NCBI RefSeq assembly: GCF_947568905.1
Contig: NC_079169.1
Location: forward strand, 37,014,001 to 37,078,000
Length of the DNA stretch: 64,000 bases
DNA from: Ostrea edulis
Taxonomy: Eukaryota
Direction: 5' to 3'
The stretch's first letter is position 1; every line of letters begins with the position of its first letter. A model generated the notes under the pieces. The model saw nothing but the letters and a program-made list of their open reading frames with translations, was not told where the DNA came from and did no database searches. Below are positions 39,536-39,802 of this stretch, one piece after another. The position numbers and the translations under genes were made by a program.

Positions 39536-39802
39536 ATGGTGAAGATGAGACGAACGTCATCAAACCTAGTCCTTTTTATGGCTTTGTTTCTGGTTTGTTC
39601 ACTGAGTGCTAAGGCCTGTGTGGTAGACCATTCCTCGTTTGGTGGCTGTAAAGACGTGGGTGGACACTGTAAAACAGCGGCGGGCGAGTGTTACGTGGTC
39701 CCTACTCTATATTACGGAGCCCAGTGCTGCTGCTCTGTCGACGAGACATGCCCTTGGATTCAACCAGATTCAAGCATTGTTCAGAAGAACAACGATCTTT
39801 AA
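39536..39802 (+). CDS. Orphan secreted cysteine-rich peptide (88 aa; predicted 27-aa signal peptide, 61-aa mature peptide with 8 Cys)
   Basis: gcaaaATGG start context; basic n-region, hydrophobic LVLFMALFLVC core and an A-K-A cleavage site. Cys spacing is C-X9-C-X6-C-X6-C-X11-CCC-X5-C. The ORF is visibly GC-richer than its flanks. A possible acceptor (catgtag) lies at ~39516 and an AATAAA at ~40009. Confidence 0.8.
   Translation: MVKMRRTSSNLVLFMALFLVCSLSAKACVVDHSSFGGCKDVGGHCKTAAGECYVVPTLYYGAQCCCSVDETCPWIQPDSSIVQKNNDL

What the first reader, a model, noticed from the sequence alone, without database searches (positions are those of the whole stretch)
39536..39802. Orphan anionic secreted peptide with an unfamiliar 8-Cys framework including a CCC triplet
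Seen: a signal peptide plus a 61-aa mature region, CVVDHSSFGGCKDVGGHCKTAAGECYVVPTLYYGAQCCCSVDETCPWIQPDSSIVQKNNDL. Spacing is C-X9-C-X6-C-X6-C-X11-CCC-X5-C, with 7 acidic residues versus 3 Lys (net about -4). Known: bivalve defensins, big defensins, macins, mytilins/myticins and insulin-like peptides have different Cys spacings, and most antimicrobial ones are cationic. I cannot place it in a named family. Inference: a four-disulfide effector, such as an immune peptide, protease inhibitor, toxin-like or chemical-cue peptide, or shell-matrix component.
Basis: partly seen in the sequence, partly recalled or inferred. Interest (0 to 1): 0.72.

Follow-up and report, generated by a model that had tools for sequence, protein, structure and literature searches.

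The report
Oyster cysteine mini-protein with KDEL-like tail
This single-copy oyster gene encodes a small eight-cysteine protein of an unnamed family whose four known branches all end in a tail resembling an ER-retrieval signal, so it is likely held inside the cell's secretory pathway rather than simply exported as an antimicrobial peptide.

Summary
The ORF is real: 88 aa, hydrophobic leader, 61-aa acidic mature part, spacing C9C6C6C11CCC5C as reported. One contig from a run guessed to be RNA joins across a GT-AG intron in the 5' leader. It is single-copy. It is not an orphan. Three homologue clusters keep all eight cysteines: Magallana gigas K1Q3X3 (uncharacterized, about 54%), a second oyster-like form (about 46-49%) and a distant form (35%). 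There is no significant Pfam, PDB-sequence or fold match. It fails the cysteine arrays of beta-defensins, SCRiPs and mytilins. After a predicted disordered linker, the four branches end NNDL, NDEL, DDEL and KNEF directly before the stop. All four fit the XX[DE][FLM] KDEL-variant pattern; chance for a homologous pair is about 0.2-0.3%, though I noticed the motif post hoc. Best reading (about 0.45): a disulfide mini-protein weakly retrieved by the KDEL receptor and released under ER stress. Main rival (about 0.35): an ordinary secreted anionic effector. Its molecular partner is unknown.

The parts
38968..38987 (+). 3' part of an upstream non-coding exon (its 5' end is not determined)
   Evidence: Contig 1 of run X1 carries 38968-38988 joined to the coding exon (tables 5, 5c, 8); donor GT follows 38987. 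Only 21 letters lie on this side, one contig, run kind is a guess.
38988..39516 (+). 529-nt GT-AG intron in the 5' leader; contains a genomic repeat near 39290-39480
   Evidence: Joint in X1: the 7 letters between the two sides equal the first letters of the coding exon, with one base missing in that individual; GT and AG ends shown.
39517..40030 (+). Exon holding the whole coding sequence and 3' UTR (3' end approximate)
   Evidence: X6 contig spans 39519-40005, X1 contig 39526-39918; X2, X5 and X7 contigs run on across the acceptor into the intron; single DNA match in the genome.
39536..39802 (+). Coding sequence, 88 aa + TAA
   Evidence: ATG preceded by A at -3 and followed by G; no other ATG between 39517 and 39535
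39536..39616 (+). Predicted signal peptide, residues 1-27
   Evidence: hydropathy; hydrophobic leader before the first Cys in all homologues; SignalP not run
39617..39751 (+). 45-aa eight-cysteine core, C9C6C6C11CCC5C, net -3, predicted beta-alpha-beta-beta
   Evidence: 15 invariant columns incl. 8 Cys across 15 aligned sequences
39752..39787 (+). 12-aa linker, predicted disordered in its distal part
   Evidence: model pLDDT under 50 for mature residues 51-61; identity to the distant homologue 3 of 12
39788..39799 (+). C-terminal NNDL, a KDEL-like tetrapeptide directly before the stop
   Evidence: homologues end NDEL, DDEL, KNEF; pattern XX[DE][FLM] from PMC2140024
40009..40014 (+). AATAAA, candidate polyadenylation signal 207 nt after the stop
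   Evidence: X6 contig ends at 40005
38562..38602 (+). TATAAAT and TCAGT, possible core promoter (untested; may be chance)
   Evidence: motif scan only

Best explanation
This single-copy oyster gene encodes a signal-peptide-bearing, acidic eight-cysteine mini-protein that is predicted to fold into a compact four-disulfide core and is likely held in the endoplasmic reticulum by KDEL-receptor retrieval through its C-terminal KDEL-like tail. Steps: (1) shown: the gene, its single copy and its homologues with an invariant cysteine frame; (2) shown on thin data: splicing of a 5' non-coding exon; (3) inferred: co-translational entry into the ER, cleavage before Cys28 and oxidation of 8 Cys to 4 disulfides; (4) predicted: a 45-aa beta-alpha-beta-beta core followed by a flexible linker that displays the last four residues; (5) inferred: the Golgi KDEL receptor binds the tail and returns the protein to the ER, weakly for NNDL and more strongly for NDEL and KNEF; (6) inferred by analogy with MANF-type clients: the rigid core acts as a protein-binding surface in the early secretory pathway, and the leaky tail lets a stored pool out when ER calcium falls or the receptor is saturated. 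The binding partner is not identified.
For: Tail: 33 of 34 stored family sequences that hold the CCC triplet end in NDEL (15), KNEF (13), DDEL (4) or NNDL (1); the other is a C-terminally extended variant; one truncated member without CCC was left out of the count. These are four branches and only two deep lineages. All fit XX[DE][FLM], the pattern used to find KDEL variants; N at -4 is reported as effective as K/R/H, F equal to L at -1, D tolerated at -2 (PMC2140024). The tail class is kept in the distant homologue although the linker is 3 of 12 identical and changes from acidic to basic. Chance estimate: 1.5-1.8% for one sequence, 0.17-0.33% for a homologous pair, 0.01-0.03% if -3 in [DENQ] is added. 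The model leaves the last 11 residues disordered, as a retrieval tail needs. This genome has a KDEL receptor with D50, S54, E117 and W120 as in the human receptor (numbered by hand over separate exons), and its MANF homologue ends in the non-canonical REEL. Single copy and no mature-region change in 5 of 5 runs laid (one signal-peptide change F18I, one silent change) fit a conserved cellular role better than an arms-race effector. ER-tail proteins are released on ER calcium depletion, depending on the last seven residues (PMC8276033).
Against: The motif was noticed after seeing the alignment, and the chance model is a crude BLOSUM estimate; given one sequence with XX[DE][FLM], a homologue has it 11-19% of the time by descent alone. 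The window's own NNDL was not among the motifs named in the parts I read; the similar NEDL gave mixed ER-Golgi localisation and D at -2 is disfavoured. DDEL is mostly secreted by receptors with D50/E117 (PMC8248988), so one branch would be poorly retrieved if its receptor resembles this genome's (not checked). The tail drifts among oysters instead of staying fixed. The nearest look-alikes are all secreted peptides: weak sequence hits to defensin-like peptides (best E 0.012) and Atlas feature hits to venom peptides at 0.75-0.81, below the lead threshold. The model is moderate (mean pLDDT 68.9, pTM 0.49) and disulfide pairing could not be read from it.
Confidence: 0.45

Rival explanations
1. An ordinary constitutively secreted anionic effector with a defensin-like fold (host-defence, protease-inhibitor or signalling peptide); the tail is incidental or a C-terminal propeptide that is removed, as in mussel defensins and mytilins.
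For: Size, 8 Cys and predicted helix plus hairpin resemble CS-alpha-beta peptides (PMC7203481 and PMC3390580 passages). Mussel defensins carry a 21-residue C-terminal extension (PMC5484132 passage). A CCC triplet occurs in Perna mytilins (PMC7168163 passages) and anionic SCRiPs exist (PMC2652719 passage). Weak hits to AvBD11 (E 0.012) and platypus defensin-like peptide (E 0.12-0.24). Mature identity to M. gigas is only 62%.
Against: No family array is met (see membership test). Core is acidic in all four branches (-3 to -6), with no cationic core to be neutralised by an anionic extension. Single copy, near-invariant between runs. No dibasic site after the last Cys in the three oyster-like forms. 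Does not explain why the last two residues keep the [DE][LF] class.
Confidence: 0.35
2. A luminal or extracellular metal or redox buffer in which some cysteines (the CCC triplet) and acidic residues bind Zn, Cu or Ca instead of all forming disulfides.
For: Acidic core, CCC triplet, invariant D40, S34, S67. Oysters accumulate Zn and Cu (recalled, not from a call).
Against: Even number of Cys and a signal peptide point to full oxidation; neither His is invariant; Cys density is far below metallothionein levels (recalled); no Pfam match.
Confidence: 0.1
3. A shell-matrix or mucus structural component cross-linked through its cysteines.
For: Acidic and cysteine-rich, the features once used to propose a calcification role for SCRiPs.
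Against: No repeats or low-complexity blocks; compact predicted fold; single copy; no tissue data either way.
Confidence: 0.07
4. Not a gene: a chance ORF.
For: The coding part is one short exon; expression support is one joined contig from a run whose RNA status is a guess.
Against: Homologues at E 5.6e-22 and 7.5e-4 against 1.84 billion proteins keep all 8 Cys; 0 of 1271 shuffled ORFs look alike; canonical intron.
Confidence: 0.01

Closest known systems
Magallana gigas K1Q3X3 (UniRef100 'Uncharacterized protein')
   Same: Same length class (84 aa), identical cysteine spacing, 62% identity in the mature part, same 16-aa tail length. Almost certainly the same family; the exact sequence is on 547 assembly contigs.
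   Different: More acidic (core -6), ends NDEL. No name, function or paper found.
Soluble KDEL-receptor clients with non-canonical tails (MANF/ARMET RTDL, AGR2 KTEL, neudesin KDEF, PATE NEDL; table in PMC2140024)
   Same: Signal peptide, soluble disulfide-containing domain, XX[DE][FLM] at the extreme C-terminus.
   Different: No sequence or fold relation to any of them; at 61 aa it is much smaller than MANF-type proteins (sizes recalled). ER localisation is not shown here.
CS-alpha-beta (cis-) defensins: oyster Cg-Def, mussel MGD, mytilins incl. Perna CCC forms
   Same: Bivalve, signal peptide, 8 Cys, predicted helix plus antiparallel hairpin, G-x-C before the hairpin, C-C-C on the last strand, short C-terminal extension.
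   Different: No two Cys lie four residues apart in any branch, array differs from the mytilin array, core is anionic, single-copy, no Foldseek or VIA match.
Cnidarian SCRiPs (beta-defensin-like, 8 Cys with CCC)
   Same: Signal peptide, 8 Cys, CCC triplet, two consecutive C-X6-C spacings, some anionic.
   Different: SCRiPs have five Cys before the triplet and none after; this has four before and one after, then a 15-16-aa tail. No sequence or fold hit to the solved SCRiP structures appeared.
Beta-defensins, big defensins and platypus defensin-like peptides (trans-defensins)
   Same: Local C-x3-GG-x-C resemblance gives the best, non-significant PDB sequence hits (6qeu E 0.012; 2mn3 E 0.12-0.24; Pfam Defensin_int E 3.6).
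   Different: Eight Cys instead of six; the Cys that lies between the third Cys and the terminal CC in 2mn3 has no counterpart (alignment); no big-defensin N-terminal domain.

Membership tests
KDEL-receptor client (soluble ER-retrieved protein) | N-terminal signal peptide and no transmembrane segment | tested here: met
   hydropathy profile only; SignalP not available
KDEL-receptor client (soluble ER-retrieved protein) | XX[DE][FLM] at the extreme C-terminus (PMC2140024) | tested here: met
   4 of 4 branches, 33 of 34 CCC-containing stored sequences
KDEL-receptor client (soluble ER-retrieved protein) | Strict Prosite-type motif with E at -2 and L at -1 | tested here: not met
   window protein has D at -2; M. 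gigas NDEL meets it as the motif is described; KNEF has F at -1; DDEL has D at -4
KDEL-receptor client (soluble ER-retrieved protein) | Tail accessible on a flexible end | tested here: inconclusive
   pLDDT under 50 for the last 11 residues, which may be disorder or lack of data
KDEL-receptor client (soluble ER-retrieved protein) | Tail-dependent ER localisation or receptor binding | not testable with these tools
   needs cell experiments; the genome's receptor gene is split into exons and could not be given to the complex predictor
CS-alpha-beta cis-defensins (Cg-Def, MGD, mytilin, myticin) | Alpha-helix packed on a two-stranded antiparallel sheet | tested here: inconclusive
   predicted H14-20, E25-28, E36-39 but no fold match with E <= 0.001 or Z >= 2
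CS-alpha-beta cis-defensins (Cg-Def, MGD, mytilin, myticin) | Two helix cysteines (C-X3-C, recalled) bonded in parallel to the last strand | tested here: not met
   no Cys pair four residues apart in 4 of 4 branches; one Cys in the predicted helix
CS-alpha-beta cis-defensins (Cg-Def, MGD, mytilin, myticin) | Mytilin array C3C3C4C11C1C1C2C | tested here: not met
   array from PMC7168163 against 9,6,6,11,0,0,5
CS-alpha-beta cis-defensins (Cg-Def, MGD, mytilin, myticin) | Cationic mature core | tested here: not met
   core net charge -3, -6, -6, -5; Cg-Def pI 8.5-8.7
SCRiP | Eight cysteines with three together near the C-terminus | tested here: met
SCRiP | Five cysteines before the triplet, none after | tested here: not met
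   frameworks listed in PMC10892658 Table 1 passage
Beta-defensin / big defensin (trans-defensins) | Six cysteines paired 1-5, 2-4, 3-6 | tested here: not met
   eight Cys; fourth beta-defensin Cys has no counterpart; pairing itself not testable
Beta-defensin / big defensin (trans-defensins) | Pfam or PDB match above threshold | tested here: not met
   0 families for the window protein; best E 3.6 (Pfam) and 0.012 (PDB)
Any of the above | Measured disulfide connectivity and biological activity | not testable with these tools
   model coordinates are not returned; no assay data

The most novel reading that the evidence does not exclude
An undescribed family of defensin-sized, four-disulfide mini-proteins with a cysteine frame of their own that live in the ER lumen, are recycled by the KDEL receptor and are released as a stress signal: a toxin-like or defensin-like scaffold turned into an ER resident, with retention strength tuned by lineage (KNEF and NDEL strong, NNDL and DDEL weak).
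Probability: 0.35. Interest if true: 0.75.

Novelty: new variant of a known kind. Interest (0 to 1): 0.52.

Why it matters
Small cysteine-rich proteins with a signal peptide are routinely filed as secreted antimicrobial or toxin-like peptides. If this tail works, the family is a counter-example: a very small disulfide scaffold kept in the ER and released on demand, in farmed oysters where heat and infection stress matter. The claim is cheap to test with a four-residue tail swap. Even if the tail is incidental, this is an unnamed, conserved cysteine frame with no solved structural relative, small enough for synthesis and NMR.

Tried and rejected
Word-index search with the single protein found nothing and the exact sequence is not in the collection; the full HMMER scan was needed. 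4 of its 6 hits (P0003, P0004, P0005, P0007) are long bacterial-type repeat proteins without the cysteine frame and were dropped as composition hits. A second profile search added no new cluster; only lengths 45-154 aa were searched, so fused forms were not looked for. Pfam and NCBIfam: no family. Single-sequence model pLDDT 53.8 was not used. Fold searches in PDB (Foldseek, VIA, VIA-wide) and viral models: no significant match; this does not show that the fold is new. Atlas feature hits were all under 0.9. Attempts to place the distant homologue: metagenome scan gave 1 spurious bacterial locus L002; prokaryote genome and viral scans gave none; its organism stays unknown. Two weak own-genome hits (E 1.2 and 2.1) are an EGF-like exon and a non-coding stretch, not paralogues. 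No RNA holder was listed on record. X1 and X6 have no contig cover on the unique flanks, which proves nothing by itself. A weak resemblance to the luminal cysteine loop of acetyl-CoA transporter 1 (E 0.3-1.8) was noted and not accepted. Earlier scan notes: nothing by sequence, words or place. No complex prediction was sent: no suitable unsplit partner was available. Literature: 0 papers for the accession and 0 for a 9-residue family motif; listings of four topical searches showed no title on this family; supplements were not searched, and oyster proteomics or expression tables under other gene ids could hold data on it.

Full report
Observation. The cysteine spacing of the 61-aa mature part is 9,6,6,11,0,0,5, with 7 acidic residues and 3 Lys, pI about 4.6. 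The leader is hydrophobic at residues 11-21 and nothing after it is. Among 62 ATG ORFs of 60-130 aa in the window only this one combines a hydrophobic leader, 8 or more Cys and a soluble mature part; 0 of 1271 ORFs in 40 shuffled windows do.

Gene structure. Seven runs hold the stretch; five were laid. One contig of run X1, which is guessed to be RNA, joins 38968-38988 to 39526-39918 with 7 letters between. Those letters are the start of the coding exon, so the joint removes 38988-39516, a 529-nt intron with GT and AG ends. The short side is only 21 letters and it is one contig, so this is thin but exact. A contig of X6 spans 39519-40005, from two bases inside the exon to just before AATAAA at 40009, while X2, X5 and X7 contigs run on into the intron. 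In the coding region the five runs differ from the window at two places: F18I in the leader and a silent change. Protein searches with three family members and a DNA search find only this locus as a credible match in the 894.8-Mb genome; such searches give lower bounds. The nearest recognisable neighbours are a Tctex-1 exon on the minus strand (32349-32540) and a PH-domain exon on the plus strand (61399-61650) (132 of 486 frames scanned).

Homologues. A full HMMER scan of 1.84 billion representatives gave 6 hits at E <= 0.001. Two are short proteins with the whole frame; four are long repeat proteins and were dropped. The first cluster has 39 members, 15 listed, and includes Magallana gigas K1Q3X3, 'Uncharacterized protein'; this is my basis for calling the window an oyster. 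The second has 15 members from metagenome and run assemblies, organism unknown, 35% identical over 84 columns. A profile search added a third cluster of 4 members at about 46-49%; a second round added nothing. All 8 Cys and V29, S34, G37, D40, G50, S67 and P77 are invariant across 15 aligned sequences. Spacing is identical in three branches and 9,6,6,7,0,0,6 in the distant one. So the protein is unnamed but not an orphan.

Family and fold. Pfam and NCBIfam give no family. PDB sequence searches give only weak hits: avian beta-defensin 11 at E 0.012, a platypus defensin-like peptide at E 0.12-0.24, a plant defensin and scorpion toxins at E 1-6. The alignment-guided model has mean pLDDT 68.9 and pTM 0.49, with 75-85 over residues 1-40, a helix at 14-20, strands at 25-28 and 36-39, and a low-confidence tail at 51-61. 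Foldseek against PDB gave 0 of 19 rows at E <= 0.001, VIA gave 0 of 48161 and 0 of 19 chains at Z >= 2, and the viral library 0 of 102 rows at E <= 0.001. For so small a model this shows neither a new fold nor a known one. The helix-plus-hairpin order resembles CS-alpha-beta peptides, but no two Cys lie four apart (the C-X3-C requirement is recalled). The array differs from mytilins, including Perna forms that also have CCC (PMC7168163 passages), from SCRiPs, which put five Cys before the triplet and none after (PMC10892658 passages), and from six-Cys trans-defensins (PMC7203481 passages). Oyster defensins are cationic (PMC3390580 passages); this core is acidic in all four branches.

After the last Cys every branch has 15-16 residues and then stops at NNDL, NDEL, DDEL or KNEF; 33 of 34 stored CCC-containing sequences end so, one is extended, and one truncated member was not counted. 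Raykhel et al. (PMC2140024, parts 2 and 3 of 7 read) screened human secretory proteins for XX[DE][FLM]. They found N at -4 as effective as K, R or H, F equal to L at -1, and D at -2 only partly effective; NEDL gave mixed ER-Golgi staining. A BLOSUM-based estimate puts the chance at 1.5-1.8% for one sequence and 0.17-0.33% for a pair of homologues at 24-31% identity, but 11-19% for the second sequence once the first has it. The distant branch keeps the class while its linker is 3 of 12 identical and of opposite charge. The genome encodes a KDEL receptor with D50, S54, E117 and W120 and a MANF homologue that ends REEL, so non-canonical tails are in use here. Against this: receptors with D50 and E117 exclude DDEL (PMC8248988 passages), the window's own NNDL is a weak variant by the published rules, the motif was picked after looking, and there are only two deep lineages.

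Mechanism. Shown: gene, single copy, conserved frame, conserved tail class. Thinly shown: splicing. Inferred: ER entry, cleavage before Cys28, four disulfides. Predicted: compact core and flexible tail. Inferred: KDEL-receptor retrieval, leaky in this species, with release when ER calcium drops, as described for ER-tail proteins whose last seven residues set the response (PMC8276033, part 2 of 5 read). I put this at 0.45. A plain secreted anionic effector, with the tail incidental or cleaved like the 21-residue extension of mussel defensins (PMC5484132 passage), gets 0.35. Metal or redox buffer 0.10, shell or mucus component 0.07 (the features used for SCRiPs, PMC2652719 passages). What the core binds is not known, and nothing here tests activity.

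Novelty. No paper in the searched library holds the accession or a 9-residue family motif. The listings of four topical searches showed no title on this family; supplements were not searched. Earlier scan notes held nothing. I rate it a new variant of a known kind: a small disulfide-rich secretory-pathway protein with its own frame and a probable retrieval tail. Interest 0.52; 0.75 if the ER-resident reading holds.

Noticed in passing
window 7753-8010 (-) and 20125-20373 (-): First exons of two similar glutathione S-transferase genes (GST_N hits E 3e-4 and 1e-3; 81% DNA identity over 759 nt), a local duplication.
   Followed up: partly
window 32349-32540 (-) and about 34065-34700 (-): Tctex-1 family gene upstream of the peptide gene, on the opposite strand (Pfam E 4e-15 for one exon).
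   Followed up: partly
window 61399-61650 (+) and 62068-62790 (+): PH-domain exon and a long low-complexity exon of a larger signalling-scaffold-like gene; its other exons were not mapped.
   Followed up: no
window 50848-51222 (+): GIY-YIG-like fragment (E 0.003, under the cut-off) next to a short tandem repeat, probably a retroelement remnant.
   Followed up: no
window 29700-31533, 8875-9679, 9731-13352, 42134-42950, 27676-28657: Several tandem-repeat arrays, the first with a period near 135-140 nt.
   Followed up: no
window 6106-6649, 14723-15016, 23113-23411, 40532-40619, 56739-56898: Self-complementary (inverted-repeat) elements, MITE-like.
   Followed up: no
L009 (G000:C7:56599940-56600074 region): The genome's MANF/ARMET homologue ends in REEL before its stop.
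   Followed up: yes
L007/L008 (G000:C4, about 88.614 Mb, minus strand): One KDEL-receptor locus was found, with human-type gatekeeper residues D50 and E117.
   Followed up: yes
P0034 and P0029 (distant homologue cluster): One member runs 20 residues past the KNEF tail and one ends early before the CCC triplet; may be assembly or gene-calling errors.
   Followed up: no
family profile against PDB 9m0s/9mun/9pvm residues about 466-520: Four family cysteines line up with a cysteine loop of acetyl-CoA transporter 1 (an ER membrane protein, recalled) at E 0.3-1.8; not significant.
   Followed up: no
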